The position numbers and the translations under genes were made by a program. A model generated the notes under the pieces. The model saw only the letters and a list, made by a program, of their open reading frames with translations, did no database searches and was not told the DNA's origin. 64,000 nucleotides of DNA from Bacteroidales bacterium (GTDB lineage: Bacteria; Bacteroidota; Bacteroidia; Bacteroidales; WRLA01): assembly GCA_963662905.2 (NCBI GenBank), contig CAXXFD010000004.1, forward strand, positions 194,172 to 258,171, in the 5' to 3' direction. Shown one piece after another: positions 26,261 to 42,981 of this stretch. How positions within the stretch are numbered: the first letter of the stretch is position 1; each line of letters opens with the position of its first letter.

Positions 26261-26264
26261 AATA

Positions 26265-27899: not shown

Positions 27900-28170
27900 G
27901 GTCAATATACTCCGGAATTATATTGTGCCCCTCTCTAAAGTGGGTCAACATGCTCCGGAATTCAGCCAGCGCTCCACTGAAAGTGGGTCAACATGCTCCG
28001 GTTTTCTCCATCCTTGTCTCATGAAAAAGGGTCAACATGCTCCGGATTTGGTTGCTTGAAGTGCCTTCTCCCGTTTTAGGGGGGTCAGTATCCGCCGGAT
28101 TGGCAGTCTTTGATGGCTTTTTATTGCTGTTTATTTCAGCCGGTCGGGTGGGTCAGCTTAGTCCGGAATA
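27900..28170. repeat. Array of six subterminal repeats at the istA-proximal IS21 end (presumed transposase binding sites)
   Basis: The motif ggtca(a/g)NNtNNtccgg(a) starts at 27900, 27942, 27985, 28029, 28082 and 28149. Three copies are identical (gggtcaacatgctccgg). Two inverted copies lie at the other end (25467..25497). Confidence 0.7.
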
Positions 28171-28174
28171 TCCA

Positions 28175-28430
28175 CCCAACAGAAGGAACTTTGTTTCACA
28201 GGGTTCGTTTTGGCTTGCGCAAGGCATTCGGCATTGCTTTTTGAGATGAGCGCAACCATAAAAGGACTTTCGGTCACACAAGTTTCCAAACGCTATCAAA
28301 TTGGCCATACCACTGCATGTACATTTATGCACAAAGTACGTACAGCCATGAAAAGCACAAAAACCATCCAATTGAAGGCGATGCACAGGTAGATGGGTTT
28401 GTGTTTGGAGGGAAAGAGAATCTAAAGCTA
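28175..28430 (+). pseudogene. IS1595-family transposase remnant, fragment 2
   Basis: Continues fragment 1 in frame across the removed IS21 (..SPT|EGTLFHRVRFGLRKAFGIAF*). It needs two frameshifts to read ..MSATIKGLSVTQVSKRYQIGHTTACTFMHKVRTAMK.. and then ..GDAQVDGFVFGGKENLK. Confidence 0.65.
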
Positions 28431-29722: not shown

Positions 29723-29749
29723 CAAAAAACCCAGCGCATTGGCCGGGTT
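29723..29749 (-). terminator. Rho-independent terminator of the Rhs operon
   Basis: The minus strand reads AACCCGGCCAATGCGCTGGGTTTTTTG: a GC-rich stem followed by a T-run, 27 nt downstream of the last operon gene. Confidence 0.55.
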
Positions 29750-29775
29750 CTATTGGTATTTATTTACGTCGCATC

Positions 29776-30219
29776 TCACTTTCGATCTTGTAAGTTTTGA
29801 CTATCACTCAAAATCGGGTTCGTTAAAACGTCTTGAACATAACCTGTAGATTGAAAGGTAATAATCCCCTTATCTGTTTCGATTGTATAATCCCATAATA
29901 TCATCTTCCCATTAGGGGTTGCTCGTTTATTATCCCTTGTAATTTCCAGTATGGATAGGCATATAGAATTATTAAAGTCAATATCTATTTTTAAATTAAG
30001 TACATTATTAAATATTAAATTACATTTTGATACCCAAAATTGGTAACTGCTTTCTTTACTCCTTTCCCATTTAAAAATATAATCAATATCTAATGATAAT
30101 TCAAGATTATCCCATGGAAACTTCATAGAATAAAGACTTGCATCATGCCAACCCATTTCTTTAAAATCAGCATCAGTCCATTTGTTTTTAACTTGTAAGG
30201 TAGTCATACTAATTCCCAT
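29776..30219 (-). CDS. Candidate cognate immunity protein for the Rhs C-terminal toxin
   Basis: A small (143-147 aa) ORF with no signal peptide. It overlaps the Rhs stop by 11 nt, or starts 1 nt after the stop if the ATG at 30207 is used. It is AT-rich like the toxin tip. No known family was recognised. Confidence 0.55.
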   Translation of the reverse strand: MGISMTTLQVKNKWTDADFKEMGWHDASLYSMKFPWDNLELSLDIDYIFKWERSKESSYQFWVSKCNLIFNNVLNLKIDIDFNNSICLSILEITRDNKRATPNGKMILWDYTIETDKGIITFQSTGYVQDVLTNPILSDSQNLQDRK

Positions 30220-33200
30220 TCCTTTTATCCAATACTTTTTTTACAGTTCTAATGTCTTGCTGATTCATTGGTTCAACGGTTTTTCTATCCTTATTCCAAT
30301 GAGTCTGTCCTGTTTCTGGATTTGTATTCTTATTTGAATATTGCTTGTGCGGTGTCTCTACTCCTTTATGTGTTGCTCCATCCAGATCATAATGAACTTT
30401 CTTATTTGGTGTCTCTACTGTTACCGAGTTTTTACCATCATTAAGATTCGTCTTAACATCTAAGGCTTGCTCTTTAATACTTGGGCTTTTTGCTAACTTC
30501 TCACTACCTTCTTTAAGCATTTTCTCACCACCTTCTTTGGCTAACTTCTTACCCCCTTGCTGAATAACGTCATCAACACCAGTAATCACGGGAACACCTG
30601 TAACTTCTTCAACTGTTGTTTCAACAACTTCTATGGCAACATATGTAGCAACAGCTTGAATACCGTAAAGAGCAATAGCAAAAGCCCCTACCATTGCAGT
30701 TCCAACAGCCGCCGCACCAATTGCATTCTTTTTAATATCATGCTTAGTGATATGCCCTTTCTTTTGCGAATCAGCATACAACTGGCCATAAACCCAAGGA
30801 GGATCATCAACAACAGTTCCGTCCGGGTCAATAAACCTGATTGGATTGTTTAAAGTATAATTGTAAGGAGACCAATTAAAATATAAATGCGCCATCGGGT
30901 CAACAACATACCATCTGCCAACTGAAGGATCATAAAACCTCGCCCCATAATCGTACCAGTTTAATCCAAAATCATCCTGCAGTTCCTTGCCGTTGTATTT
31001 ATATTTGTTTTCAGGGCTGGCATCGCTATAACTCAAACCGGCAATATTCATCCCAAATGGATAATAAGCGTCTTTCTGCAAAACCGTTCCGTTTTGGCTG
31101 AGGGTAACACGTGTATTGCCCAGGTGGTCTTTGAGGTAATATTGGTAATCAAATCCTCCGTTTTCCCGTGGCACCAGCCTTCCTTCGGCATGTTGCACAA
31201 ACTGCAGGTTGCCGTCGGAATAAACGAAGCTGCCACAATAATCAGTTGCCGGTCCGGGCATATAGCCTGTGGCGTATGTGGTTTTTTGCAGCTTCCTGCC
31301 CAACGCATCATATGCATAGAAAATATGCTTCATTTCGTCCTGCTCCAAATCAATTTGATCGGGTAAATTTAGGTAATTATAGCTTACGCCCGAAATTTGT
31401 TTGTTTTTGTCCAGTGTCATATTGCCGTTATCGTCATATGCGTATTCACCCTGTTGCAGGAATGAGCCATTGTCCGTAAAGCCGTTGAGCTGTGCTGACT
31501 GGGCTGTTATGTCGTTCACGGCAATAAGCTGGTTACCGGAATAGCTGTAATCCATTTGGTCGATAATGCCATTAGCGGAAGTCTGGGCAAAATCCCCCCG
31601 GCGTTTCAACGAAAGGATATTTCCGTTGCGGTCATAGGTATATGCCGTACTGTATTTGTTGTTTATATTGTATGTGGCTGATTCGATGCGGTTTATATCG
31701 TCATAATAGTACTGATAGGCCGACAGTTCGGGATACATTGCGCTTTTCCAGCGTATGGAAGCAATATTTCCGTTAAACTGAGGTGCAGTAGCATTTGTAT
31801 TGTATTCCAATTGGCAGGCAAAGGCGTCGTTTACTGTCTGATCTGCTTTATTGATGCCCGTGAGCCATCCCCGGATATTATAGGTGTAATCAATATTTTG
31901 CAGGCAACCGCTTGATGAAACATGGAGCTTTTTGATCCGTAAACGGTTCAGGTCATCATACCTGTTGGTATAGAGGTTAACTGTGTCTGCCCCGTTAACA
32001 GAATGCAGGTGGCGTGTTATATTGCCCAGGTGATCGTATTCAAAACGCTCGGCAATTTCAATGGGTGTTGCATTTTGCCCTGCCTGATGGCTTTCTTTGG
32101 CAATCAGTACCTGTCCTGTATAGTTGGTTTTGTTGGAAATAATATCCAATCCTTCCAGGTGGTTGTCCTTTACGGTTTGGATCAGATGTCCGTATTTATT
32201 GTAATAATCAACCTGCAGCATATTGCCGTTCAAAGGCACAGTGCTGTTGTTAGGTATTATTGAAGTGCGTGTCCCGGTCTGGAGCCCTTTTACCTCATTG
32301 GTATTTGGCAAAGCAAAATCCAGGTGGCTGCTTCGGAAGGCATAATCGTTTGTATATGCAGAAAGCTGGAGGAAATCATAATTGTCATAATAATTGATGG
32401 TACCAATAAAATCAGATTGACACAGTGAAGGGTATGCGTTATTGGTATAACCGTAATCAGAATTTGGGTCATAAGATTCGTACGCAGCGGCAGCATCAAT
32501 ATATACCTGCATTTGCTCTGGTGTTTGCGGTGCGGGGAATTGGTGGATACCACTGATAATTTCCCTGTTATGGGCATCGTATTTTTTAAACATCCATTGG
32601 TTTCGAAGCCGCAGTTCACCATCCTGGATCAATACGGGAAGGTCGCGTTCGTTATATAGCATAAAAACTGCCTTTGCCCCGGGCAATTTCTTAAGTGTCA
32701 TGCGGTTTAATTTGTCATAATCATAGTAATAGCAAAGCTGGTCTATATCAGTATTGGTTTCATAAGTACCCAATGTTGTATTGCTTTGGCTGAACAAAGC
32801 ATCAGCTTTTGGTGGCACAACATAGCGGAGCATACCATAATCATCATAAACATAGTAAGTGCTTAGCCATTGCCCGTCATTTTGCATCCTTTTTAGGATA
32901 AGTTCGCCAAATTGATTTTTAAATTCAATGCTTTTATTGCCGTTTTCGTCTTCAGCATATACACCCTGAAGGTTGTTTGGGCTATAAGCCCCTTCATATA
33001 TCAGTTCATCATTAACATTGACTTTATAGTATTTAATATTATCACTGCTTAGGTTGGTCACATAATTAAATTCCTGAACATGGCCTCCCTGAATTTGCCA
33101 ATCGGAACCGGGGGCAGATTGTTCCATTATACGGTTTAAGGGGGATCCGTCATATTCTTTTTCAGCAAAAGGGAACTGGCCGTCCTGTTGGTTTGAGAAT

Positions 33201-33793
33201 GTTGCGTAAAAGCCTTTGGCTTCTGTGGCAGCATCGGTTCTCAGCCCTCCCGGGCCATAATCCGGGTGTTCCTGATTTATGGCATAGGGCAAAAACTCTT
33301 TGCTCATTCTCCCAAATCCGTCGTATTCAATATTCTGTATGATATCAGCTCCTGATGCAGCCCCTTTCACAACTACATTTTGTATTTCACGCCCCAGTCC
33401 GTCATAATAAACGATCTCTTCATGCCAGTCTTTTTCATAATCAATGGCATTATGGACCGGGCTTAGTGTTGTGGCATTGTTTCCAATAGGGGTGTAGTGC
33501 CGTATGTAATTGTAATTAAAATCTCCATCTGTTACTGCCTGCCCCCCGTTATAAGCCAGTACCGGGTCAATAAAAGCATGGAGGTTAGATCCATTTGCCA
33601 GAGCTGTATATCCCGGTGTAAAATGCAAGGATTTCCTGGCTTTTTCTATGGCATTTTCGTATTGTGGCAGCTCCCTGTCATCCCAGCCATCTGGAGGGAT
33701 CTGGGCAAATACAGATGAGTTTCCAATAACTAAAACGGCAATTATAAATAGGGTTATTTGGGATTTCATTTTATGCTTGTTTATCAATTTCAT
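30209..33793 (-). CDS. RHS/YD-repeat protein with RHS-associated core and a variable C-terminal toxin domain; Sec signal peptide
   Basis: Signal peptide (KSQITLFIIAVLVIGNSSVFAQ). A Bacteroidota-type N-terminal region (DFNYNYIRHYTP) recalled as DUF6443-like. Many YD repeats (YYDGLGRE, YDGFGRM, YVYDDYGMLRY, YDKLNRM, YDHLGNI, YDDLNRL, YDRNGNI, YDDNGNM, YDALGRK). Core: NWYDYGARFYDPSVGRWYVVDP...YNYTLNNPIRFIDPDGT. Confidence 0.9.
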   Translation of the reverse strand: MKLINKHKMKSQITLFIIAVLVIGNSSVFAQIPPDGWDDRELPQYENAIEKARKSLHFTPGYTALANGSNLHAFIDPVLAYNGGQAVTDGDFNYNYIRHYTPIGNNATTLSPVHNAIDYEKDWHEEIVYYDGLGREIQNVVVKGAASGADIIQNIEYDGFGRMSKEFLPYAINQEHPDYGPGGLRTDAATEAKGFYATFSNQQDGQFPFAEKEYDGSPLNRIMEQSAPGSDWQIQGGHVQEFNYVTNLSSDNIKYYKVNVNDELIYEGAYSPNNLQGVYAEDENGNKSIEFKNQFGELILKRMQNDGQWLSTYYVYDDYGMLRYVVPPKADALFSQSNTTLGTYETNTDIDQLCYYYDYDKLNRMTLKKLPGAKAVFMLYNERDLPVLIQDGELRLRNQWMFKKYDAHNREIISGIHQFPAPQTPEQMQVYIDAAAAYESYDPNSDYGYTNNAYPSLCQSDFIGTINYYDNYDFLQLSAYTNDYAFRSSHLDFALPNTNEVKGLQTGTRTSIIPNNSTVPLNGNMLQVDYYNKYGHLIQTVKDNHLEGLDIISNKTNYTGQVLIAKESHQAGQNATPIEIAERFEYDHLGNITRHLHSVNGADTVNLYTNRYDDLNRLRIKKLHVSSSGCLQNIDYTYNIRGWLTGINKADQTVNDAFACQLEYNTNATAPQFNGNIASIRWKSAMYPELSAYQYYYDDINRIESATYNINNKYSTAYTYDRNGNILSLKRRGDFAQTSANGIIDQMDYSYSGNQLIAVNDITAQSAQLNGFTDNGSFLQQGEYAYDDNGNMTLDKNKQISGVSYNYLNLPDQIDLEQDEMKHIFYAYDALGRKLQKTTYATGYMPGPATDYCGSFVYSDGNLQFVQHAEGRLVPRENGGFDYQYYLKDHLGNTRVTLSQNGTVLQKDAYYPFGMNIAGLSYSDASPENKYKYNGKELQDDFGLNWYDYGARFYDPSVGRWYVVDPMAHLYFNWSPYNYTLNNPIRFIDPDGTVVDDPPWVYGQLYADSQKKGHITKHDIKKNAIGAAAVGTAMVGAFAIALYGIQAVATYVAIEVVETTVEEVTGVPVITGVDDVIQQGGKKLAKEGGEKMLKEGSEKLAKSPSIKEQALDVKTNLNDGKNSVTVETPNKKVHYDLDGATHKGVETPHKQYSNKNTNPETGQTHWNKDRKTVEPMNQQDIRTVKKVLDKRNGN
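30212..30814 (-). other. Rhs C-terminal polymorphic toxin tip (201 aa after the DPDGT core boundary)
   Basis: Starts VVDDPPWVYG. Contains a ~35-aa hydrophobic stretch (AIGAAAVGTAMVGAFAIALYGIQAVATYVAIEVV), a K/E-rich linker, and a terminal ~75-aa His-rich module (KKVHYDLDGATHKGVETPHKQYSNKNTNPETGQTHWNKDRKTVEP). The DNA turns visibly AT-richer at the boundary. Confidence 0.7.
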
Positions 33794-33795
33794 GG

Positions 33796-36700
33796 TTATT
33801 GATTCTTATAATGATACTCCAGGTGTTTCTGTTTTTTAAGCTCTTCGTCCATAATGCTTTGAAGCCTGCCTGCCATATCGTATGTATAAAAAGAAATACG
33901 GTTTTTGGGGTCAGTGCCGGAGGTGATTCCTATGAGGGGCTTATGTGTATATGTTTGGATCATTGCATTTTTCATGCTTTGTTGTGCACGCAAGGCTGTA
34001 TTGAAGTTTTTCCAAATGCCCTGTTTCATGGTATTATTGGCAATATCATGCATATCGGCAACAAGTTCATGGATGTTGGCATAGCCGGAAGGGATTGACG
34101 CAGCAACAGCAGCACTGAGGGTAGGGTAATCAACGTTGGAGGCCTCAACAACAACACATGTTTGGTTGTATGACCATATTACACTTTTGGTCGGCTCACT
34201 TCGCATTTTGTATTGCAGAACATTGCCCTTATCGTCATAATCATCAAATTCAATATATGGATCAGGTGCAGATCCGGGACCTTTTTTGAAAATATATTTG
34301 CCCAACTGCAATAACCCGTCATCATCCATATTATATTCAATAATATCTGAATACATGCCTTGCCTATTCCTTAGTTTTTCAACTTTGATTGGAATGTTAA
34401 CTCGGTTCTGCGCAAAAAGCTCACTGCGGTATGGTGTATTAACCTGTTCGGGATATAGATATGTTTTCTGTAACCTATTGTCTCCGGTCTCTGTTGTTTC
34501 CTTTTTCAGTAAGAGGTCACTGCGCACCGTATTGGTATAATACTCCTTTGTTGTTGTTGTAACTACAGCTTCTCCATCTTTATAGTCTGTAGTAATTATC
34601 TTTGAAGGCCTGGTTTGTCCGCTATAGATGGGGTAATAGGCTCCAATATGCTGTTGTTTTAATCTTAAAACATAGCTTGTAGATTCCCAAATCAACAATT
34701 TATAAAAAGCGGTTCTAAAACCATAGAATATTTCGGATCGGTAAAAATCATATTCCCGATCTATTGTTTTGATTATATTATTATTTTCGTTGTAGAAAAC
34801 TTCCCTAATTATTGAGCCATTTCTCGGTTCTTCTTTATTCCTATAAGAGGGTGGAGTGACATAATCTCTATAATTAAATGGGGTTATATCAGGATAATTT
34901 ACATAATGAATCTCTTGCTTCCCATTATACTCGGCCAAAAAACGATCTCTAATTGTAACAACATCATACCCAACAATATCTCCAGAACCAAATAGAGATG
35001 AAGTCTTAAGATTATTATTATTGGAAAGCCAACAATTAAAGAAATATCTACCTCCTGTATTCCAATATGAAATAGGAGGATTTGCGCAATTTAAGCGCAG
35101 GATGGAAAAATTATATTCTGCAAATGGTTTCGTTTTTGACAGGTTCTTTCCCCCGGAATACTCAAAGCTCTTTTCTGTATAAGAATTGTATCCGTCTGCA
35201 TAATTTAATATCTGTCTTATCCTAAGACCGTTCCCATGTGTTATGGAGTTTTCAGTATCATTAAAATCCGGGAAATAGCCTTTTTGCGGATAAGTGTTTG
35301 GATATGCATTTAATTCATACTCAAAAAGAGTTCGCCCCCCTGTAGGATAGACAATCTGTCTGAGTATAGACGCTTGGGTGAAACTTAATTTGGCTGAATG
35401 ATTGTTTCCATTGTTTAATGGGACTTCCTCTCTATAGCCTTTAAATCTTGATATATTAGGAATTAAGCTATTATTATTTGTTTCACCATTAAAATAACCC
35501 CAATAATCAACAGCAAATGAATTCTTTTTTGGTAAATTGACATCCCAATAAACAAAAGAATATGCAGGTTTGCCCAACTCTCTAATTGAATCTAGTTTTA
35601 ATCTATGTGTTAAAAATGTTTCTGGCAAATCATCAATTTGCACATCATAAGTGTTTCCCTGACTGATGCCCTCAAAATAGCTATAGAAGAAATCAATGGA
35701 TTTAATTATAGTTCGATTCAAATTTATAATATCGATACTAGAAAGTTTTTTTCCATTTTTATCTAATCGTTCATTATTTTTATTAAAGACAACTGTGCCT
35801 CCGGAAAAATTAATAGAATCAAGATAGGCATCCTGCTGACGTGTAAAAGTCCAAGAATTAAAGAGCCTCCAATGAGTTTCAAGAGATTCTTGATTGTAGT
35901 ATCGCGGGTATGGTGCACATGAGGGATGATCTACACGATTATATTGACTAAATTGAATTGCTGTAATAGGACTTTCCATATAATTATCCAGATATCTGTA
36001 ATGCCATGTTTGTCCTAAAGCTGTAAGATTAAATTTTTCAGGCGTTCTTGAATAGTTGAAATTTATTGACCTTTCATTTGGGGTTATAATTTCTGTTAGG
36101 AGCCACATTCTTGAAGTAACCTGATTAGGGCCAAACGGGGAACAGCTTCCTCCATAGCCTTGAGAGTAGCTTCGCGCGTCACGGATTGTTTCTACGCATT
36201 CCTCAAAATGATATGATACGCCATTATCCAAAGTTATTTTCCATGCAAACGGCATACTGCCGGTCTTGGTAATTTTACAAGTTGTGTTGTTTAATATATG
36301 AATTGTGCTTTCATTTTCAAAATCAATTAGGAATTCAATTGTTTGACCTAAAAATATTGCTTTAAACACATCAGGTTCAGAATCGGTTTTATTAATATAA
36401 TTCGGATAATCATTACAGTCCTGTGAATCAAATAGGCATGGTTTATGATTATTATAATAATTTCCATCCTCAGGAACGTATCCATCAGTAAAATGCCAAT
36501 AAGAATAGTGATCTAAAGAAATTTCATCGTTTGAAGGGGTATAGCCAGTGGCTGGAGCACTATTGGGATAGTCATATGGCCATGGAAACTGTGCGGGTTC
36601 ACTATAATAAGGAGTAGAAGCGTGATAGTCCGGTAGTATTTTTTCCACATTGCCATCTAAATCATCTTTATCGTTGATAATTTGTATTATACTTCCAAAA

Positions 36701-37008
36701 TTTATATCCCATCCAAGTCCAGTCCAGCTTGCTTCGTCCGTAACCTTTATTCCTCCTGAATGATACCGAAGCTCAATAGGCACTTCAATACTTGGATACT
36801 TAATATTATATAAAGGCACAGAAATGTTTGGGACACCTGTGTATGCATCAACAGGTATCTCACCATATTTCAGAAAGCTGTAAGCTTGTGGAGAGACAGG
36901 GGATGTTTTGGGCACATAGTAATCGTCAATGGTTTGAGCAGAGGTAATTCCATTAAGGCCTATACTGATGCAGGTCAGTATGAAGTATTTATATATTATG
37001 TGTTTCAT
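33796..37008 (-). CDS. Large secreted protein with SpvB/TcB-N-terminal-like motif and a terminal YD repeat; function unknown
   Basis: Signal peptide MKHIIYKYFILTCISIGLNGITSAQ. The stretch PVDAYTGVPNISVPLYNIKYPSIEVPIELRYHSGGIKVTDEASWTGLGWDINFGSI follows the pattern TG-x4-S-x-P-L ... L-x-Y-x-SG ... G-x-GW seen at the start of SpvB/TcB proteins. The last 35 aa contain FYTYDMAGRLQSI. The stop lies 2 nt from the Rhs start. Confidence 0.5.
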   Translation of the reverse strand: MKHIIYKYFILTCISIGLNGITSAQTIDDYYVPKTSPVSPQAYSFLKYGEIPVDAYTGVPNISVPLYNIKYPSIEVPIELRYHSGGIKVTDEASWTGLGWDINFGSIIQIINDKDDLDGNVEKILPDYHASTPYYSEPAQFPWPYDYPNSAPATGYTPSNDEISLDHYSYWHFTDGYVPEDGNYYNNHKPCLFDSQDCNDYPNYINKTDSEPDVFKAIFLGQTIEFLIDFENESTIHILNNTTCKITKTGSMPFAWKITLDNGVSYHFEECVETIRDARSYSQGYGGSCSPFGPNQVTSRMWLLTEIITPNERSINFNYSRTPEKFNLTALGQTWHYRYLDNYMESPITAIQFSQYNRVDHPSCAPYPRYYNQESLETHWRLFNSWTFTRQQDAYLDSINFSGGTVVFNKNNERLDKNGKKLSSIDIINLNRTIIKSIDFFYSYFEGISQGNTYDVQIDDLPETFLTHRLKLDSIRELGKPAYSFVYWDVNLPKKNSFAVDYWGYFNGETNNNSLIPNISRFKGYREEVPLNNGNNHSAKLSFTQASILRQIVYPTGGRTLFEYELNAYPNTYPQKGYFPDFNDTENSITHGNGLRIRQILNYADGYNSYTEKSFEYSGGKNLSKTKPFAEYNFSILRLNCANPPISYWNTGGRYFFNCWLSNNNNLKTSSLFGSGDIVGYDVVTIRDRFLAEYNGKQEIHYVNYPDITPFNYRDYVTPPSYRNKEEPRNGSIIREVFYNENNNIIKTIDREYDFYRSEIFYGFRTAFYKLLIWESTSYVLRLKQQHIGAYYPIYSGQTRPSKIITTDYKDGEAVVTTTTKEYYTNTVRSDLLLKKETTETGDNRLQKTYLYPEQVNTPYRSELFAQNRVNIPIKVEKLRNRQGMYSDIIEYNMDDDGLLQLGKYIFKKGPGSAPDPYIEFDDYDDKGNVLQYKMRSEPTKSVIWSYNQTCVVVEASNVDYPTLSAAVAASIPSGYANIHELVADMHDIANNTMKQGIWKNFNTALRAQQSMKNAMIQTYTHKPLIGITSGTDPKNRISFYTYDMAGRLQSIMDEELKKQKHLEYHYKNQ

Positions 37009-37028
37009 TGGTTCAGAAATTCAATCAA

Positions 37029-39083
37029 TTATTTTTTAACAATTTTAATAATATGAGTTTGCTCATCAATATTGATTTTTAAAGTGTACAAACCTGTATT
37101 CAAGTTGGTCAACCTTAGCTGTCTTCTAAAAATAAAGCCGTCTGTAACTGCCTTTTCACTGTAAATTATTTGTCCCAGGGTTGAGTAGATTTCGATAACA
37201 ATGGGCTGCTTATGCTCCGTGTTTTTTGCAACCTCTATATTTAACCAATCCTCAACAGGGTTAGGGTAGGCATTGATACGTAATTCTGTTTTTGAGCGAT
37301 CATGGACATTGATAAGGATTTCATCAGTACTTTCACAATTATTATAATCAGTAGTAAATACTGAGAGTTTATGAATCCCAGGGGTTAAGCTATTTGCCTC
37401 AATGCTTATATTTTTTGTTTCCTCTCCAGAACTCCATATGTATGTTTTAAAACCACCCAGAACTTCAACCTGGGCTATTTCATCCCTATATAGCTCAATA
37501 TCACCACCGAGCTTTGGTTTTCTCAAAGGTTCAACAATAGCCATAACAGTGTCTAGTGCTTCACAACCTCTTGTACTAACAACTTTTATCGTAATCATCT
37601 GAGTTGAATCAGCTATATAGGAATTGCTTCCTTGGACGCCGTTCCATAAATATCGGCTAAAGGAGGAATCAACCTTGATTTTTATAGGTTCACCGCAAAG
37701 TGAATATAGTTCATTTTGAGAAAGAAGGTCTTTATACATACTGCAATCCAAGAGCCTGGAAGCATAATAGTTTTCGCCCGGGGCAAAATCGGACTGATTA
37801 TCGAAAATTCGAATGGAATTGCTGAAATTGCCATTAACAAATATTGTTTGCTCATCATATATCATGGCATGGCGAATGAAATTTGAGTTCGAGTCACCAA
37901 TGGGCTCTATTTGCTCCAAGATCCCTTTTCCGTCCAGCTTGGCCAAAAAGGCATCTGTTGACAGATTTTGAGATTCAATTTGCCAGTCATCAATGTCAAT
38001 TTTCCCTATAAATGAACCTCCGATAATTAATCTATCCCTACCTGGGTCATAGTCCATTGTTTTTGGATAATCATTGGCAATTCCCCCAAAAGAATTTATC
38101 CACTTAAGTCGGTAAGATGAATCAACCCCAGCAATAAACACATCATTCATTCCATTAGAAATTATGGCCTTGCCCCCGAAGCTAATTTCATCCTGAAATG
38201 ATCCAATGGCGATAAAACCGTCTTTAGTGAAAGCAATGTCGACGATTTCGTCGTCGTAATCCCCGCCAAACAGAAAAGCGGAAATATTGTCCGACTGTAT
38301 TTTTGATGGATCTAATTCCAAGACAATTCCGTCTCTCATTCCTTTGCTGCTAAATAATTGATTGTTAACAGTGACCTTATCCTTAAAAGCCCCTCCAAGA
38401 ATAATATTTTGATTAGGAGCTGTTTTAATAAAGTTTAGCTCAAAAAACCTGCTTTCCAGTCCGCAACTGTCAAAAACAAGGCCTGTTTCATCAAGGAAAT
38501 AAATCCGATATAGCTTTTTATTGTTATCATTAGGTTTAAATGACCTAAGCTCCGCTGCAATTACTGTGCTATCTCCCTGGGCAAATGTTCCTTGAACAAA
38601 TGAATATTTCGGATACTCTATGAACCTTTTAAAATTACCATTTTTAGTCAGCATTAGCTCAAAAGACCTTATTGACTTTGAATGCGAAAGCTTTCTTCCG
38701 TTAAATTCAATAGTTCCACGGAAAGAACCATATAATATGATTGTTTCTTCTGACTGATTTACAGTTAAACTATTGATATGACAAAACTTATCACTTAATA
38801 CGTTTTGCGCCCAAAGCTCAATTCCGGAACTGTCTAATTTTTTTATATAAGAAACTAATGAAGACTCCTTAAAAGCAAGGTTTATTTTATTGGTATCAAT
38901 TATTTGTTTAACTCCCGTTAAATAGGTGCATGATGATTTATCAAGGTAAGCGTCCGATATACTTTGAACACCAATTTCTTTTGAATTTAGCATCCACTCA
39001 ACGGATGTACCTTGGGCTGCTGTAAAAGAGATAGGAGCCAATATGCTCAGGGCAAATAAAAAGAGCTGGAATTGACGTGTCAT
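37029..39083 (-). CDS. SBBP-like beta-propeller repeat protein with Ig-like modules and T9SS C-terminal sorting domain
   Basis: Has a signal peptide. Repeats of the type GG..D....I....DG.I.IGSF.....FGG......G..D.FIA resemble SBBP repeats. The C-terminus INAYPNPVEDWLNIEV...GLYTLKINIDEQTHIIKIVKK is a type-A CTD. Confidence 0.65.
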   Translation of the reverse strand: MTRQFQLFLFALSILAPISFTAAQGTSVEWMLNSKEIGVQSISDAYLDKSSCTYLTGVKQIIDTNKINLAFKESSLVSYIKKLDSSGIELWAQNVLSDKFCHINSLTVNQSEETIILYGSFRGTIEFNGRKLSHSKSIRSFELMLTKNGNFKRFIEYPKYSFVQGTFAQGDSTVIAAELRSFKPNDNNKKLYRIYFLDETGLVFDSCGLESRFFELNFIKTAPNQNIILGGAFKDKVTVNNQLFSSKGMRDGIVLELDPSKIQSDNISAFLFGGDYDDEIVDIAFTKDGFIAIGSFQDEISFGGKAIISNGMNDVFIAGVDSSYRLKWINSFGGIANDYPKTMDYDPGRDRLIIGGSFIGKIDIDDWQIESQNLSTDAFLAKLDGKGILEQIEPIGDSNSNFIRHAMIYDEQTIFVNGNFSNSIRIFDNQSDFAPGENYYASRLLDCSMYKDLLSQNELYSLCGEPIKIKVDSSFSRYLWNGVQGSNSYIADSTQMITIKVVSTRGCEALDTVMAIVEPLRKPKLGGDIELYRDEIAQVEVLGGFKTYIWSSGEETKNISIEANSLTPGIHKLSVFTTDYNNCESTDEILINVHDRSKTELRINAYPNPVEDWLNIEVAKNTEHKQPIVIEIYSTLGQIIYSEKAVTDGFIFRRQLRLTNLNTGLYTLKINIDEQTHIIKIVKK

Positions 39084-39095
39084 CTTTTATTTCTT

Positions 39096-40760
39096 TTAGT
39101 TTGCTATTTTTTCAGAGAGCTTGTTCAAGTCTTCCTGCTGCCGGATGATGAGCTTTTGCTGTTCATCAATCTGCTTCTGCTGCTTAATCACATAAAGCGT
39201 CAGCTCTTCAATTTTCTGCAAGAGTTTGGCATCCATTTGCCCTACATTGATGCCTTCTTCGGCAACCTGATCAGCTGAAGGGATATCAGGAAGGTGTTTG
39301 TGTTCCTTTATGTAAGATTCCACTTCATGGAGGGGGCGCAGTTTGTAGTTATCCGCGAATACGAAATCGCTCCATTCGGTTAATAACTTAACCCATAGTT
39401 CAGTGGCCATGATTCCACCGTTGACGTAGAGTTTGGCCGTGTTGGCATCATCAATAAAGGTTTGTCTTTCGCCAGGAGTAGATAGCCCTATACCCACAGC
39501 ATTGTTGCTTTTAACTAGTAGGCCTTCTGAGGCGATAAGGTTACCTTTATGGTCAACAGCGGAAAACCTATTCAAGGTAATGAAATTCGGATCTGCCAAA
39601 TCAGTAACACGCAAATCACCATTCACATGCAGTTGTGTTTCAGGCAACTCAGTTCCGACCCCAATTTTACCTTCTTCATCGGAGATAAAAAGGGCGTAGT
39701 TGAGTTCTACTTCTCCCGGGGCTGCTTCTAAACTTCTAATTGGTTTCCAAAAATTCAAACCATCGGATTCATATTTAATACCCCAACGGCCATTTGGGTT
39801 TTCCGGATCACCATAATTATCAAATAATAGGGAACTATTAGGCGTGTTTATAAGTATTTTTCCGTTTACATGAAGATCTTGTAAAGGTCTAATAGCGTTT
39901 ATTCCTACATTTCCGGTTTGGTTCTGGATAAACAAATGTACCCTGCGGTCAACAATATTTAATGTAGGGTCATCACCAACACCACCAGAGCCCCCTCCTG
40001 TTGTTCCGTAAACAGGTTCAAAAAACCTTAAGCCTTTGTTTAATTGGTAATCTACGCCCCAACTTACTTCTCCGTCTTGGGGTGTAGCGTTAAAAAATAC
40101 AGCTTTGTTTTCCCCGGTTACACAAATATTCCCGGCTACATCCAGTTTGAAATGCGGTATTTTATTTCCAATTCCCACAAAGCCAATATCTGTCGGCACA
40201 TCATTCCCTTTAACATAAATAGCTGGCGTTATGCTCCCCGCAGCAAAAGCAAGACTGTAGGGCTCAAATGTTTCAGTACCAAAACCTAAGGCGATAGAAT
40301 GATGGGCTGAAGAACCTGTCACAAGGTTTGCTCCCAATGCTGCACTATATTCACCTCTTAATTGTAAGTCTTTGCCCAGTCCCAATGTCCACAAATTGAA
40401 GGATGTATTATTGAATCCCAACAACATAGTGTTTTCAGTGTTATCGGCAGATTCATTATATGAACCAAAAAGAAAAGACTGTGGAGTACGTGTGCCGGCA
40501 ATATTGTTATTTCCTAATAAAACCGAATTGCCCGAATTGCTTGGTATATAGTTATTATATCCAATACCAATACTGTGACTTCCATTAACCTCACTATTAA
40601 CGCCAAGGCCAAAAGCACTGAGTCCGGTAACTGTGGCGCCATTAAATGCTGTATTTGAGCTGCTAGATGTGCCGCAATTAAAGCATTGAGATTTAGCCAA
40701 TAAATGACAGAGAATAAAGCTTATGGCTAAGCAAGTTATTAAAAGCTGTTTGTTTTTCAT
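39096..40760 (-). CDS. Secreted tail-fibre-like / adhesin-head-like protein with C-terminal coiled coil
   Basis: Has a signal peptide. The N-terminal third has short G/N/S-rich repeats like trimeric-adhesin heads (SIGIGYNN, VLLGNNNIAG, MLLGFNN, SAALGANLVTG, SIALGFG). The motif (K/H/Y)(L/V)xV(A/N)G recurs (FKLDVAGNI, LHVNGKI, LHVNGDL, LYVNGGI). The C-terminus reads WSDFVFADNYKLRPLHEVESYIKEHKHLPDIPSA...LLQKIEELTLYVIKQQKQIDEQQKLI. Confidence 0.55.
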   Translation of the reverse strand: MKNKQLLITCLAISFILCHLLAKSQCFNCGTSSSSNTAFNGATVTGLSAFGLGVNSEVNGSHSIGIGYNNYIPSNSGNSVLLGNNNIAGTRTPQSFLFGSYNESADNTENTMLLGFNNTSFNLWTLGLGKDLQLRGEYSAALGANLVTGSSAHHSIALGFGTETFEPYSLAFAAGSITPAIYVKGNDVPTDIGFVGIGNKIPHFKLDVAGNICVTGENKAVFFNATPQDGEVSWGVDYQLNKGLRFFEPVYGTTGGGSGGVGDDPTLNIVDRRVHLFIQNQTGNVGINAIRPLQDLHVNGKILINTPNSSLLFDNYGDPENPNGRWGIKYESDGLNFWKPIRSLEAAPGEVELNYALFISDEEGKIGVGTELPETQLHVNGDLRVTDLADPNFITLNRFSAVDHKGNLIASEGLLVKSNNAVGIGLSTPGERQTFIDDANTAKLYVNGGIMATELWVKLLTEWSDFVFADNYKLRPLHEVESYIKEHKHLPDIPSADQVAEEGINVGQMDAKLLQKIEELTLYVIKQQKQIDEQQKLIIRQQEDLNKLSEKIAN

Positions 40761-40956: not shown

Positions 40957-42981
40957 ATGATGAAAAAGAATATACTCATCGTATTTTGGCTGTTTTCAGC
41001 CTTTTTTTGGGATTCGTATGCCCAAACCGTATTCTTAGAAGACTTTAGTAAAGGGGATTCCTCGCTTGAAGGCTGGGAAGTTGGCCCCAACGATTATCCT
41101 GTATTTTCGGAATATCGTATTGCAAATACAGCCTTATGCAAACGCGAAGCACCGGAGTTTAATCTGTATTATTGTGGCAAAGAAACACATAAAGGCAACT
41201 CTGGTGAGTATTATGGTGATGGAATTGATTTGATCTCCCCGCAATTTGATTTTTCGCAATATGATGAGCTCAACCTATCTGTTGACCTATATTATTTGCC
41301 AGATCTGGTCTGGATAGTTTATCAGCTCTATTTTATTGTTGAAACGCGTAATAATTTTACAGAGGATTGGGTTGAACTTTTTCACTATAAGTATGAGTAT
41401 GGGACTAAGGATTTAGAACCACCATTTAACCTAATAATGGCTCTTGATTCATCAATGTTCAAAAAAGAAGGATTTCAAATTAAATTAAGGCTTTCTAGTA
41501 ATGTGGGCTGGATGTCATACAGTAATAACTGGTTTAATATTGACAATATCCATATTTATCAACCTGATCAGCATGACCTTGGTTTTTTTACGGATTATCC
41601 GGATGTCCATATGGAGAAGGATTCCGTATTTATACCCAGGGTATTTGTCAGGAACAACGGGCTAATGAATACCGAAGGACAGGTAAACTGTCAGATAAAA
41701 GAGTTTCAGACTGGCGACTTAATTTATAATGAAACTGTTGGCACAACTGAGCCTGGATCACTGGATACTGTAAGCCTTCATTTCCCTCCTTTTGTTGTTC
41801 CTTACAGCAACAATCTCTATGATGTTGAATATCAGCTTATGTGTACGGGTGATGTCAATATCGATGATAATAATGCTTCATTTAAAATTGATTCCTATAC
41901 AAGTTTGTATCATAATATATTAAGTATCAATGTTTTGTATTCAACAGAGTTTTTGGAATCCGGATATAATATGATGGTACCGTATATCATTGACTTGCCT
42001 GATGTATTGGAGGAATATGATGATATAAAGGAAGCTATCCCCAGATGTCAAGTGGCTAACTATATATATGATGATGTACCGGATTCACTAGATACACAAA
42101 CTGCAATGGCATTTTTACATAGTATTGATGCGGACTTTGAAGCGGGAGGACCTTCTCCGAACTTAATTCCTCATATTCCTGCATGGATTTTCCTTCCTGG
42201 CAACAATATATATCCTGTACACTCTTGTTTTACGTATCCTAATGATCCAAGCACAGACTATATCATAATAATTGATGAGTTGGCACAGCACGCCAGGAGT
42301 GCATTTTCATTGGATATTTTTGGTACCCATTCCGGCCTGGATTATAGTATCATGGTCGAACTCACCCCCAAAGCCCCAATCGTAAATGAATATTTAAAAT
42401 TACATACGGTAATCACACGCTCCCATGTGCCGTCTAATGCCAATCCGGAAATACCAGATCGGTACCGCGTTGAATTCTTCGACGACGTAGTCCAAATGGC
42501 CCTGCCCGATACCAACGGCATTGCTTTTTCCATGGACGGATCAGAGACCAGCGCCAAGCAATGGGAAATGTCATTCAGTTTAAAGGATTTCTGGGATCCG
42601 GAGCAGGTGAAGGTTGTAACTTATGTTCAGGATACATTTACCTACGACATCCTGCAGTGCCGTGCTGTGCCCCTGCAAAACCTTTGGGGCGTAGGAATGG
42701 AAGAAGAAGCGCAAATGCCTGCAGAAAGCGTCCTTATCAGTCCCAATCCGGCAAAAGACATGCTTTATGCGCAGCTCATGCTGGAAATGCCGGCCAATGT
42801 GGATTTCCGCCTTTTTGATATCAATGGCCGCGATCTGGGCATCCTGAAAAGAAGCTTCCTCGGTGCAGGCAACCACAAAGTGCAGATCAGTGTACCGAAG
42901 CACATAAAAACAGGCATCTACATCCTGCAAACAGAAACAGAGCGTGAGCTTTATTCGCAGAAACTGAATATTGTGCGGTAA
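40957..42981 (+). CDS. T9SS-secreted protein (choice-of-anchor-J-like N-terminus, Omp28-related-like region, type-A CTD)
   Basis: Signal peptide MMKKNILIVFWLFSAFFWDSYAQ. Then FLEDFSKGDSSLEGWEV. A later motif VKVVTYVQDTFTYDILQCRAV is recalled from Omp28-related proteins. The C-terminus SPNPAKDMLYAQL...GIYILQTETERELYSQKLNIVR is CTD-like. Confidence 0.55.
   Translation: MMKKNILIVFWLFSAFFWDSYAQTVFLEDFSKGDSSLEGWEVGPNDYPVFSEYRIANTALCKREAPEFNLYYCGKETHKGNSGEYYGDGIDLISPQFDFSQYDELNLSVDLYYLPDLVWIVYQLYFIVETRNNFTEDWVELFHYKYEYGTKDLEPPFNLIMALDSSMFKKEGFQIKLRLSSNVGWMSYSNNWFNIDNIHIYQPDQHDLGFFTDYPDVHMEKDSVFIPRVFVRNNGLMNTEGQVNCQIKEFQTGDLIYNETVGTTEPGSLDTVSLHFPPFVVPYSNNLYDVEYQLMCTGDVNIDDNNASFKIDSYTSLYHNILSINVLYSTEFLESGYNMMVPYIIDLPDVLEEYDDIKEAIPRCQVANYIYDDVPDSLDTQTAMAFLHSIDADFEAGGPSPNLIPHIPAWIFLPGNNIYPVHSCFTYPNDPSTDYIIIIDELAQHARSAFSLDIFGTHSGLDYSIMVELTPKAPIVNEYLKLHTVITRSHVPSNANPEIPDRYRVEFFDDVVQMALPDTNGIAFSMDGSETSAKQWEMSFSLKDFWDPEQVKVVTYVQDTFTYDILQCRAVPLQNLWGVGMEEEAQMPAESVLISPNPAKDMLYAQLMLEMPANVDFRLFDINGRDLGILKRSFLGAGNHKVQISVPKHIKTGIYILQTETERELYSQKLNIVR

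What the first reader, a model, noticed from the sequence alone, without database searches (positions are those of the whole stretch)
29776..40760. Five-gene Rhs toxin operon with Sec signals and a T9SS cargo, a TcB-like partner, and no T6SS, TcA or CdiB component
Five same-strand ORFs are packed with gaps of 12, 20 and 2 nt plus one overlap. A terminator follows at 29723..29749, so this reads as one operon. In order the genes encode a tail-fibre-like coiled-coil protein, an SBBP-propeller T9SS cargo, a 1070-aa protein with an SpvB/TcB-like opening and a terminal YD repeat, a 1194-aa RHS-core toxin, and a small cytoplasmic immunity candidate. All four large proteins have classical N-terminal signal peptides. 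From established knowledge, Rhs toxins are delivered as T6SS PAAR/VgrG cargo (no signal peptide), as TcB-TcC cocoons injected by TcA, or as wall-anchored proteins in Gram-positives. None of these fits here: the window has no Hcp/VgrG/PAAR, no TcA, and an outer membrane must still be crossed after Sec export. My inference is that the two large RHS-type proteins form a BC-like shell in the periplasm or on the surface. The T9SS cargo and the fibre-like protein might then supply surface anchoring and target binding. I do not know of such a delivery route having been characterised.
Basis: partly seen in the sequence, partly recalled or inferred. Interest (0 to 1): 0.85.

Follow-up and report, generated by a model that had tools for sequence, protein, structure and literature searches.

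The report
Split Rhs toxin cocoon in Bacteroidota
This is a real five-gene operon whose two large Sec-exported proteins look like the two halves (TcB and TcC) of an insecticidal-toxin "cocoon" but have no injector, and it belongs to a very common, experimentally untouched toxin system of Bacteroidota whose route out of the cell is unknown.

Summary
In detail: five minus-strand ORFs at the stated coordinates, a terminator hairpin, four Sec-type signal peptides, and no T6SS, TcA or CdiB gene among 35 window ORFs scanned.

The core is the pair g3 (1070 aa) and g4 (1194 aa: DUF6443, RHS core, Ntox24 toxin).
- Of 64 related g3 genes with enough downstream sequence, 60 are followed by a DUF6443-Rhs gene. 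Two loci of one MAG carry in-frame g3::g4 fusions.
- The AlphaFold model of g3 superposes best on TcB, and the g4 model on TcC or TcB-TcC. Neither fits closed T6SS Rhs cages well.
- The g3 N-terminal region has about 11,000 relatives at the 50%-identity cluster level.

The other genes are facultative. A T9SS-CTD neighbour (as g2) flanks about 40% of related loci and a g1-type fibre about 17%. All five families co-occur in only 2 of 48 fully flanked loci (plus L018). g5 is the likely immunity gene.

A TcB/TcC-like two-chain cocoon is well supported but not shown directly. Outer-membrane crossing is unresolved: T9SS piggy-backing, vesicles or lysis. Two papers had already noted Rhs/T9SS-cargo adjacency (P. 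gingivalis, Apibacter), and I found no functional study. It is a new variant of a known kind, of moderately high interest.

The parts
39096..40760 (-). g1: Sec-exported trimeric fibre-like adhesin (554 aa). It has a variable N-terminal part with YadA-head-like repeats, GNVGIG-type beta-helix repeats, a conserved C-terminal domain and a terminal coiled coil.
   Evidence: ORF. Signal peptide. The family profile A4 hits Bdellovibrio MAT fibres 8ond, 8oml and 8ojn at E 3.3e-12 to 1e-7. Weak PHROG tail-fibre hit. YadA_head E 0.0057.
39099..39440 (-). Conserved C-terminal domain of g1 (residues 441-554, consensus WPDYVF..YKL....E.E.YI..N.HLP.IPSA). It is shared by fibre genes with very different N-terminal heads.
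   Evidence: 33 ORFs in related loci match it. Alignment A4 invariant columns. Heads vary (Laminin_G_3, Sialidase N, CBM96, T4 gp36). 324 database hits, one named Peptidase S74 domain protein by UniRef. The SDxxxK catalytic spacing of S74 is not present.
37029..39083 (-). g2: T9SS cargo protein (684 aa) with a signal peptide, a probable beta-propeller and a type A C-terminal sorting domain.
   Evidence: Family profile A3 hits the CylK beta-propeller at E 6.6e-42 and solved T9SS CTDs. Por_Secre_tail is present in 16/16 relatives, with DUF5122, SBBP or PQQ propeller hits in some.
37032..37268 (-). Type A T9SS C-terminal sorting domain of g2 (residues 606-684).
   Evidence: PF18962 E 1.1e-11 (45.2 bits, cut-off 27). 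TIGR04183 E 7.7e-10 (38.6 bits, cut-off 23)..
33796..37008 (-). g3: Sec-exported TcB-like half-shell protein (1070 aa). Residues ~33-530 form an SpvB-N-like region and residues ~540-1070 form an Rhs/YD beta-spiral. No beta-propeller was detected. The boundaries are inferred.
   Evidence: AF2 pLDDT 83.4, pTM 0.87. Foldseek gives 47 hits, almost all Rhs/YD-shell proteins. The best TM-scores are to TcB (YenB 0.38, TcdB2-TccC3 0.34-0.38), against 0.11-0.18 for T6SS Rhs cores. SpvB N-domain 6p0x scores E 4.4e-5. There is no Pfam propeller hit at E<=10 and no profile similarity to the g2 propeller. The N-terminal 580 aa has 11,075 relatives at E<=1e-10.
30209..33793 (-). g4: Sec-exported TcC-like Rhs polymorphic toxin (1194 aa).
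   Evidence: AF2 pLDDT 77.9. Foldseek: TcdB2-TccC3 TMq 0.50, rmsd 5.5-5.8 A. TcC chains give TMt 0.65-0.69. T6SS Rhs cores give TMq 0.14-0.35, rmsd 14-33 A. The best PDB sequence hit is YenC2, E 1.9e-8.
33059..33442 (-). DUF6443 domain of g4 (residues 118-245). In the natural fusions this is the point that joins directly to the C-terminus of g3.
   Evidence: PF20041 E 6.5e-36. Fusion junction in L012: g3C ends at 1276 and DUF6443 starts at 1280.
30818..31066 (-). Rhs-associated core with the aspartyl autoprotease motif (RFYDPSVGRW ... PIRFIDPDG, ending at residue 992).
   Evidence: TIGR03696 E 1.5e-16. R952, D965, P984, D989 and G992 are invariant in 63 relatives. Motif position.
30212..30817 (-). 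Polymorphic C-terminal toxin region of g4 (residues 993-1194). It holds a hydrophobic Gly-rich segment at 1024-1057 (window 30623-30724) and an Ntox24 domain at 1130-1171 (window 30281-30406).
   Evidence: Ntox24 PF15529 E 2.9e-8, 34.3 bits against a cut-off of 24. AF2 predicts the region disordered. Relatives carry other toxin Pfams after the same core. The hydrophobic segment is present in 1 of 90 relatives.
29776..30219 (-). g5: small cytoplasmic protein (147 aa), the candidate cognate immunity protein.
   Evidence: It has no signal peptide and no family. It overlaps the g4 stop by 11 nt. A homologue (E 5e-7) in L094 directly follows an orphan Ntox24-like fragment.
29726..29751 (-). Intrinsic-terminator-like hairpin with a T-run, 25 nt after g5.
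   Evidence: 10 pairs, 5 of them GC, tail TTGTTTCC.

Best explanation
The locus encodes a Sec-dependent polymorphic Rhs toxin system typical of Bacteroidota. Its core is a two-chain, TcB/TcC-like cocoon.

Proposed mechanism:
- g3 and g4 are each exported to the periplasm by cleavable signal peptides.
- g3 is an SpvB-N-like domain plus a partial Rhs spiral and has no propeller. Its C-terminus abuts the DUF6443 region of g4, so the two spirals close one shell.
- The Rhs-core aspartyl protease of g4 cuts after residue ~992. This leaves the ~200-residue toxin (a hydrophobic segment plus an Ntox24 putative nuclease) unfolded inside the shell.
- g5 protects the producer's cytoplasm. That implies the targets are bacteria, including kin.
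- The shell must then reach the surface. My preferred route is that it binds the beta-propeller of g2 and is carried and anchored through the T9SS by g2's type A sorting domain. In this view g2 supplies in trans the propeller that TcB carries in cis.
- The trimeric fibre g1 then binds the target cell.

Status of each step:
- Shown: gene structure, domains, signal-peptide features, pair conservation, natural fusions and fold resemblance.
- Inferred: the physical g3-g4 complex, encapsulation, T9SS piggy-backing, the fibre's targeting role and g5 immunity.
For: Pairing.
- 60 of 64 g3-like genes with enough downstream DNA are followed by a same-strand DUF6443-Rhs gene. 44 of these lie within 150 bp, and 2 more loci are g3-g3-g4 tandems.
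- The reverse test gave 2 of 2: the Pedobacter schmidteae and Flavobacterium sp. B183 DUF6443 Rhs genes are each preceded by a g3-like gene.

Fusions. L012 (2414 aa) and L005 (1823 aa) join the g3 C-terminus directly to DUF6443, with the g4 signal peptide lost.

Folds.
- g3 fits TcB best: TMq 0.34-0.38, against 0.11-0.18 for T6SS Rhs cores.
- g4 fits TcC or TcB-TcC best: TMt 0.65-0.69, rmsd 5.5-8 A, against rmsd 14-33 A for T6SS Rhs cores.

Catalytic core. The core residues are invariant in 63 relatives.

Sec export. Signal peptides are conserved in all four families.

Accessory proteins.
- A T9SS-CTD gene lies next to g3 or between g3 and g4 in 19 of 48 fully flanked loci. All 16 aligned g2 relatives carry the CTD.
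- Fibre genes with swapped heads, in arrays of up to nine, lie upstream of g3.

Immunity. The g5-like and Ntox24-like pair recurs in L094.

Literature. Independent genomic notes link Rhs genes and T9SS cargo genes in P. gingivalis, where they are the genes most induced during surface translocation, and in Apibacter.
Against: - There is no direct evidence of a g3-g4 complex.
- TM-scores of g3 to TcB are below 0.5.
- 23 of 48 fully flanked loci have neither a recognisable T9SS-CTD gene nor a fibre gene next to the pair. L009, from a MAG labelled Bacteroides, has only g3 and g4. T9SS coupling therefore cannot be obligatory, unless partners are encoded elsewhere.
- From my own knowledge of Tc structures, a folded BC-size cocoon (~250 kDa) may be too large for the T9SS translocon.
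- g5 matches no known immunity family, including the Imm50/Imm53 families linked to Ntox24 by Zhang et al. 2012.
- No promoter of the Bacteroidota TAnnTTTG type was found upstream of g1, so the single-operon reading rests on spacing alone.
Confidence: 0.6

Rival explanations
1. Same BC-like cocoon, but without T9SS involvement. The complex stays periplasmic and is released in outer-membrane vesicles or by lysis. g2 and g1 are merely co-located surface proteins, or they act only as adhesins.
For: About half of related loci (23 of 48) lack an adjacent CTD or fibre gene. The pair occurs in a locus from a MAG labelled Bacteroides with no CTD neighbour (L009). Neither g3 nor g4 carries a CTD. From my own knowledge, classical Tc toxins are released by lysis-type systems.
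Against: A CTD-propeller gene sits immediately upstream of g3, or between g3 and g4, in 19 of 48 loci and in several orders. That is hard to explain as chance. Sec export followed by a CTD adaptor is the normal T9SS logic. In P. gingivalis the Rhs locus and T9SS genes are co-induced.
Confidence: 0.22
2. g4 is a self-sufficient Sec-exported Rhs toxin that closes its own cage, with DUF6443 as the plug. g3 is a separate YD-repeat accessory such as an adhesin, chaperone or receptor-binding subunit.
For: The mature g4 up to the cleavage site is ~960 aa, close to the ~1020-1050 residues of single-chain T6SS Rhs cores listed. g3 and g4 show no profile similarity to each other.
Against: The g4 model superposes on open TcC half-shells (TMt 0.65-0.69) and poorly on closed cages (rmsd 14-33 A). 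The fusions place g3's last YD repeats in direct continuity with DUF6443. g3 is itself an Rhs-shell fold, closest to TcB.
Confidence: 0.12
3. A classical Tc (ABC) toxin whose TcA injector is encoded elsewhere, aimed at eukaryotic cells.
For: The folds are TcB/TcC-like. One Bacteroidota symbiont (Amoebophilus) is reported to have TcA/B/C homologues.
Against: There is no TcA in the window. No ORF of 1200 aa or more other than g3/g4-like lies in any of 97 related loci. No TcA-docking propeller was detected in g3. Signal peptides are present, and from my own knowledge TcB and TcC lack them. A cytoplasmic immunity-type gene and orphan toxin/immunity cassettes point to bacterial targets.
Confidence: 0.04
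4. A T6SS (T6SSiii) effector delivered by a system encoded elsewhere.
For: Rhs toxins are common T6SS cargo, and some Bacteroidota have a T6SS.
Against: Cleavable signal peptides are conserved on g3 and g4 across loci. There is no PAAR, VgrG or DUF4150-type domain. No T6SS gene lies in the window. Steele & Moran reached the same conclusion for the Apibacter homologues.
Confidence: 0.02

Closest known systems
Tc toxin BC subcomplex (TcB-TcC, e.g. YenB-YenC2, TcdB2-TccC3)
   Same: Two adjacent genes, sometimes naturally fused. The first has an SpvB-like N-terminus plus a partial Rhs spiral. The second has an Rhs spiral, an aspartyl-protease core and a hypervariable toxin. These are the best structural matches for both proteins.
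   Different: There is no TcA in the window or in 97 related loci. No in-cis beta-propeller gate was detected in g3. Both chains carry Sec signal peptides. The split point is shifted: g3 is shorter than TcB and g4 longer than TcC. An immunity gene and orphan cassettes indicate antibacterial rather than insecticidal use. The system is restricted, as far as seen, to Bacteroidota.
T6SS-associated Rhs effectors (RhsA, Tse5, Rhs1-Tre23)
   Same: Rhs cage, the same autoproteolytic core motif, a polymorphic C-terminal toxin with a downstream immunity gene, and an interbacterial role.
   Different: Those are single-chain closed cages with PAAR/VgrG-binding N-termini and no signal peptide. Here there are two chains with Sec signals, DUF6443 instead of PAAR, and a poor global fit (TMq 0.11-0.35).
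Bacterial teneurin-like proteins (TLPs; Raoelijaona et al. 2026, PMC13018210) and Gram-positive WapA
   Same: Sec-exported, presumably surface-displayed Rhs/YD shells that hold a toxin. A beta-propeller (NHL) is associated with the shell. The delivery step is unknown.
   Different: TLPs are single chains with FN-plug + NHL + shell. They were reported in six phyla, not including Bacteroidota. The structural fit here is low (TMq 0.10-0.24). In this system the propeller is on a separate T9SS cargo protein.
Rhs/T9SS-cargo loci noted in Porphyromonas gingivalis 381 (PGN_1816-1825) and Apibacter spp.
   Same: A Bacteroidota Rhs gene with SpvB/TcdB-type partners next to a type A sorting-domain gene. 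This is probably the same kind of system. A T9SS link was proposed in both papers.
   Different: Those reports are genomic or transcriptomic notes only. They do not describe a split-cocoon model, fusions, family size or fibre genes. Direct homology of PGN_1817/1818 to g2/g4 was not tested here.
Bdellovibrio MAT fibres and phage tail fibres (for g1)
   Same: Signal peptide, GNVGIG-type trimeric beta-helix repeats (profile E 3.3e-12) and swappable binding heads. In the literature these are surface adhesins for prey recognition (PMC10769870).
   Different: In g1 the conserved module is C-terminal and lacks the S74 SDxxxK motif. In MATs the variable tip is C-terminal. The link to an Rhs cocoon is new.

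Membership tests
Rhs/YD polymorphic toxin (g4) | Rhs/YD-repeat shell | tested here: met
   Foldseek E 1e-28 to 1e-32 against Rhs shells. The Pfam RHS_repeat hit itself is only E 8.6e-4, below cut-off.
Rhs/YD polymorphic toxin (g4) | Rhs-associated core with a PxxxxDPxG aspartyl autoprotease motif | tested here: met
   TIGR03696 scores 60.6 bits against a cut-off of 32.5. The motif ends at residue 992, and R952/D965/D989 are invariant. Cleavage itself was not testable.
Rhs/YD polymorphic toxin (g4) | Variable C-terminal toxin followed by a cognate immunity gene | tested here: inconclusive
   Ntox24 is above cut-off, and relatives carry other toxins. g5 is assigned by position and by one recurrence of the pair in L094. 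It matches no immunity family.
Tc toxin BC subcomplex | TcB-type subunit with an SpvB N-terminal domain and a partial Rhs shell | tested here: inconclusive
   The best global TM-scores are to YenB and TcdB2 (0.34-0.38). The SpvB N-domain scores E 4.4e-5, TMt 0.40. Pfam SpvB does not hit the window protein and is only faint in one homologue. The profile hit to YenB scores E 0.14.
Tc toxin BC subcomplex | TcC-type subunit: Rhs half-shell, protease core and hypervariable region | tested here: met
   TMt to YenC2, TccC2 and RHS2 is 0.65-0.69. The sequence hit to YenC2 scores E 1.9e-8.
Tc toxin BC subcomplex | B and C genes adjacent or fused, forming one cocoon | tested here: inconclusive
   Adjacency holds in 60-62 of 64 loci, and two natural fusions exist. 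The single cocoon itself was not testable because no multimer prediction was available.
Tc toxin BC subcomplex | Beta-propeller gate in TcB that docks on TcA | tested here: inconclusive
   There is no propeller Pfam hit at E<=10 and no profile similarity to the g2 propeller. The length budget and long strands argue against a propeller. Model coordinates could not be inspected.
Tc (ABC) holotoxin | TcA pentameric injector | tested here: not met
   No TcA lies in the window. No non-g3/g4 ORF of 1200 aa or more lies in 97 related loci. The rest of the genome was not available.
T6SS Rhs effector | PAAR/VgrG-interacting N-terminus, no Sec signal, T6SS genes | tested here: not met
   No such domains were found. 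The signal peptide is conserved. No T6SS gene lies in the window.
T9SS type A cargo (g2) | N-terminal Sec signal plus a C-terminal type A sorting domain | tested here: met
   PF18962 scores 45.2 bits (cut-off 27) and TIGR04183 scores 38.6 bits (cut-off 23). Signal peptide. Actual secretion is not testable with these tools.
Contact-dependent inhibition CdiA/CdiB | TpsB transporter and FHA-repeat exoprotein | tested here: not met
   No such families were found among the 35 ORFs scanned.
Bacterial teneurin-like protein | FN-plug + NHL propeller + YD shell in one chain | tested here: not met
   The system is two chains. TM-scores to 9ifo and to teneurins are 0.10-0.27. There is no NHL hit.
MAT / tail-fibre-like trimeric adhesin (g1) | Trimeric beta-helix repeat region | tested here: met
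   The family profile hits 8ond at E 3.3e-12 and 8oml at E 3.8e-9. This is sequence-level evidence only.
MAT / tail-fibre-like trimeric adhesin (g1) | S74 intramolecular chaperone with an SDxxxK motif | tested here: not met
   No PF13884 hit at E<=10. The window has S464-D465 but no Lys at +5, and the family consensus is WPD.

The most novel reading that the evidence does not exclude
Bacteroidota have a dedicated contact-dependent toxin delivery route that is Sec- and T9SS-coupled. A two-chain TcB/TcC-like Rhs cocoon assembles in the periplasm. It is exported and surface-anchored by piggy-backing on a CTD-bearing beta-propeller, which replaces TcB's in-cis gate. It is then aimed at competitors by interchangeable trimeric fibres. 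This would be a functional analogue of Tc toxins or CDI without TcA, T6SS or TpsB. The g3 N-terminal region alone has over 11,000 relatives at the 50%-identity cluster level.
Probability: 0.3. Interest if true: 0.85.

Novelty: new variant of a known kind. Interest (0 to 1): 0.62.

Why it matters
Rhs toxins are understood as T6SS cargo, Tc cocoons or Gram-positive wall proteins. How a Sec-exported Rhs toxin leaves a diderm cell and enters a target is unknown.

This locus belongs to a very large Bacteroidota family: about 11,000 relatives of the g3 N-terminal region at the 50%-identity cluster level. Relatives are found in gut, oral, soil and marine taxa.

If the two chains do form a BC-like cocoon that uses the T9SS, or vesicles, instead of TcA, that would have three consequences:
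- It would define a major unstudied interbacterial weapon of a dominant phylum.
- It would add a function to the T9SS.
- It would give a natural TcA-independent cocoon for comparison with engineered Tc delivery systems.

The window offers a compact version with all accessory parts, which suits experiments.

Tried and rejected
- Source genome. Exact look-ups of the window proteins and of the 96%-identical relative failed. Neither the organism nor the rest of its genome (T9SS, T6SS, TcA) could be examined. The cluster look-up only shows a 595-kb NCBI/ENA contig.
- Pfam and NCBIfam gave nothing for g3 or g5, even at E<=10. PHROGs gave nothing for g3, g5 or ORF 23502-25160.
- Profile comparisons. 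g3 against g4 and g3 against the g2 propeller were both insignificant. They neither relate the two Rhs halves by sequence nor reveal a hidden propeller.
- Promoter. No TAnnTTTG motif lies in the 196 bp upstream of g1. The sigma-70 scan is at background level, 53 sites found against 47 expected.
- The hydrophobic segment in the g4 toxin is not a family-wide translocation element. Only 1 of 90 relatives has one.
- The divergent T9SS protein at 40957-42981 is not a sixth member. It does not recur in 97 loci.
- Literature. 'DUF6443' appears in no paper and 'DUF5977' only in an adhesin survey. The TcB/TcC/Bacteroid* searches returned mostly noise.
- Multimer prediction and inspection of model coordinates were not possible with the tools.

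Full report
**1. What is in the sequence**

- g1, 39096-40760, 554 aa
- g2, 37029-39083, 684 aa
- g3, 33796-37008, 1070 aa
- g4, 30209-33793, 1194 aa
- g5, 29776-30219, 147 aa

The gaps are 12, 20 and 2 nt, followed by an 11-nt overlap. A hairpin with a T-run lies 25 nt after g5, at 29751..29726.

The cluster has 35-42% G+C, against about 39-50% for the rest of the window. Two insertion sequences follow it directly: an IS630-type transposase at 28480-29526 and IS21 istA/istB at 25541-27836. It therefore looks like an acquired island.

I found no promoter of the Bacteroidota type upstream of g1. The single-operon reading rests on gene spacing and the single terminator.

**2. The products**

g4 is an Rhs polymorphic toxin.
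- It carries DUF6443 (E 6.5e-36), the Rhs-associated core TIGR03696 (E 1.5e-16) and an Ntox24 toxin domain (E 2.9e-8). All three are above the curated cut-offs.
- The core motif RFYDPSVGRW...PIRFIDPDG ends at residue 992. R952, D965 and D989 are invariant in 63 relatives.

g2 carries a type A T9SS sorting domain.
- Pfam does not detect a propeller in the window protein.
- A profile of 16 relatives hits the CylK beta-propeller at E 6.6e-42, and some relatives hit SBBP or DUF5122.

g1 is a fibre-like adhesin.
- Its family profile hits the solved Bdellovibrio MAT trimeric fibres at E 3.3e-12. Those fibres are surface adhesins used to recognise prey (PMC10769870).
- Relatives of g1 share a conserved ~110-aa C-terminal domain. 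Their N-terminal heads are very different: lectin-like, sialidase-N, CBM96 or T4 gp36.

g3 has no Pfam family. g5 has no family and no signal peptide.

All four large proteins have typical signal peptides, and so do their relatives elsewhere.

Pfam scans of 35 window ORFs found no T6SS, TcA or TpsB/CdiB component. They did find three further T9SS cargo proteins. The host is therefore a T9SS-bearing member of Bacteroidota.

**3. The core is the g3-g4 pair**

Sequence searches:
- g3 relatives are named RHS/YD/DUF5977 proteins, and every named source organism is a member of Bacteroidota.
- The family-specific N-terminal 580 residues of g3 find 11,075 representatives at E<=1e-10 among 1.84 billion 50%-identity clusters.
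- g4 relatives all carry DUF6443, with varied toxin domains. There were at least 1616 hits from a capped candidate list.

I fetched 97 related loci and annotated them with iterated HMMs built from the window proteins.
- Of 64 g3-like genes with at least 3.5 kb downstream (or fused), 60 are followed by a same-strand DUF6443-Rhs gene. 44 of these lie within 150 bp.
- Two more loci are g3-g3-g4 tandems.
- In the reverse direction, two DUF6443 Rhs genes chosen from isolate genomes are each preceded by a g3-like gene.

Two loci of one Flavobacteriales MAG encode natural fusions (L012, 2414 aa; L005, 1823 aa). In L012 the last YD repeats of g3 run straight into DUF6443, and the g4 signal peptide is deleted. 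This is Rosetta-stone evidence that the g3 C-terminus and the g4 DUF6443 region are physically contiguous.

**4. Structure**

g3:
- The AlphaFold2 model has pLDDT 83.4 and pTM 0.87.
- It gives 47 PDB matches at E<=1e-3, almost all of them Rhs/YD-shell proteins.
- The best global fits are TcB proteins: YenB TMq 0.38 and TcdB2-TccC3 TMq 0.34-0.38.
- T6SS Rhs cages score 0.11-0.18 and teneurins about 0.1.
- The SpvB N-terminal domain also matches (E 4.4e-5, TMt 0.40).

g4:
- The model has pLDDT 77.9, and the toxin region is disordered.
- It superposes on TcdB2-TccC3 at rmsd 5.5-5.8 A (TMq 0.50) and on isolated TcC chains at TMt 0.65-0.69.
- Closed T6SS Rhs cages fit at rmsd 14-33 A.

By global geometry, then, g3 resembles TcB and g4 resembles TcC.

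I found no sign of the TcB beta-propeller in g3. I could not inspect model coordinates, so this remains inconclusive.

No ORF of 1200 aa or more other than g3/g4-like lies in any of the 97 loci. A TcA-sized partner is therefore not part of the module.

**5. The accessory genes are facultative**

Among 48 loci with both flanks available:
- 17 have only a T9SS-CTD gene next to g3 or between g3 and g4
- 6 have only a g1-type fibre gene
- 2 have both (L002, L061; L018 also has the full set)
- 23 have neither

The gene order varies: g1-g3-g2-g4 elsewhere, against g1-g2-g3-g4 in this window. Some loci carry arrays of up to nine fibre genes (L021, L063). Seven loci have a different, unknown ~480-aa upstream gene. 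A locus from a MAG labelled Bacteroides has only the pair (L009).

The five-gene unit is thus one configuration of a modular system, not a fixed operon.

**6. Mechanism**

The best-supported reading is a Sec-exported, two-chain, BC-like cocoon.
- It encapsulates the autoproteolysed g4 toxin.
- g5 is the cytoplasmic immunity protein. A g5-like gene again follows an Ntox24-like fragment in an orphan cassette array in L094.
- The immunity gene and the orphan cassettes point to bacterial targets.

How the shell crosses the outer membrane is not shown. I favour, at roughly 0.3-0.45, that the CTD-bearing propeller binds the shell and carries or anchors it via the T9SS. It would then supply in trans the propeller that TcB, teneurins and teneurin-like proteins have in cis. 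The fibres would provide target adhesion. The main rival is vesicle- or lysis-mediated release without T9SS involvement. The loci that lack a CTD gene favour that rival.

T6SS delivery and a classical Tc holotoxin are unlikely. The reasons are the conserved signal peptides, the absence of PAAR, and the absence of TcA.

**7. What is known**

- Zhang et al. 2012 already listed a "TcdB/TcaC" export class (signal peptide, SpvB, propeller, RHS) that includes Bacteroidetes. They filed signal-peptide Rhs toxins under "T2SS".
- Moradali et al. 2019 found that the P. gingivalis 381 Rhs locus PGN_1816-1825 lies downstream of the T9SS cargo gene PGN_1817. It was the most induced locus during surface translocation, and they suggested a mechanistic link.
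- Steele & Moran 2021 noted that Apibacter Rhs proteins have SpvB/TcdB N-termini and lie next to type A sorting-domain genes. They concluded that these are probably T9SS-associated and not T6SS effectors.
- Bacterial teneurin-like proteins are a recently solved class of Sec-exported Rhs shells, but they were not reported in Bacteroidota.
- I found no paper with 'DUF6443' and no functional study.

**8. Verdict**

The BC-like interpretation is supported by all available indirect tests. The roles of g1 and g2, and the export route, remain hypotheses. The Rhs/T9SS-cargo adjacency was already in the literature.

The system is best described as a new variant of a known kind: a TcA-less, Sec-dependent, split Rhs cocoon with optional T9SS and fibre modules. 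It is widespread and uncharacterised. Interest 0.62.

Noticed in passing
window 25541-29526: Two insertion sequences lie directly downstream of the operon: IS21 istB/istA (25541-26260, 26265-27836, minus strand) and an IS630-type DDE_3 transposase (28480-29526, plus strand). The 34-42 kb stretch also has low G+C (0.35-0.39). Together these suggest a horizontally acquired island.
   Followed up: partly
window 23502-25160 (-): A 552-aa ORF with a TTG start has no Pfam or PHROG family. It is weakly similar to the g2 propeller region (E 2e-6). It has a strong homologue (E 5e-72) in L010 at 4118-6628, about 3 kb from a g3-like gene. It may be another accessory of such loci that the IS insertions separated from the operon.
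   Followed up: partly
window 30623-30724 (g4 residues 1024-1057): A Gly/Ala-rich hydrophobic, transmembrane-like segment (AIGAAAVGTAMVGAFAIALYGIQAVATYVAIEVV) lies between the Rhs cleavage site and the Ntox24 domain. Only 1 of 90 relatives has such a segment. It may help this particular toxin insert into or cross a membrane.
   Followed up: partly
window 40957-42981 (+): A divergently transcribed 674-aa T9SS type A cargo protein lies in the same low-GC stretch. Its N-terminal part has no family, and it does not recur next to g3/g4 in 97 related loci.
   Followed up: yes
L021 2134-9277; L063 23-8226: Tandem arrays of up to nine short fibre genes sit immediately upstream of a g3-like gene. They share the g1 C-terminal domain but have different N-terminal parts, and resemble a library of interchangeable receptor-binding proteins.
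   Followed up: partly
L019, L040, L049, L053, L057, L085, L096 (gene just upstream of g3): A distinct ~480-aa protein family without any Pfam match occupies the position upstream of g3 in seven loci. The g4 genes in these loci are unusually long (1461-1909 aa). It is an alternative accessory of unknown function.
   Followed up: partly
L094 12233-12795: An orphan cassette holds a 65-aa Ntox24-like fragment (E 0.018 to the g4 toxin). A g5-like gene (E 5e-7) overlaps it by 4 nt. The cassette sits in an array of Rhs-core fragments downstream of another g3-g4 pair.
   Followed up: yes
L026 3250-10328; L029 6302-13576: Two g3-like genes lie in tandem before a single DUF6443-Rhs gene. This suggests either alternative B-type partners for one C-type toxin or a three-chain assembly.
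   Followed up: no
window 12984-15296 (+), 60556-62229 (+), 1472-2668 (-): There are further T9SS-CTD proteins in the window: a BNR/sortilin-like protein and an M14 carboxypeptidase. A PD40 propeller protein also gives a weak CTD-HMM hit. Together they show that the host makes heavy use of the T9SS.
   Followed up: no
window 51039-58128 (-): A TamA-like Omp85/POTRA protein (753 aa) and a TamB-like protein (1612 aa) overlap by 11 nt. This is an outer-membrane assembly pair with no evident link to the toxin locus.
   Followed up: no
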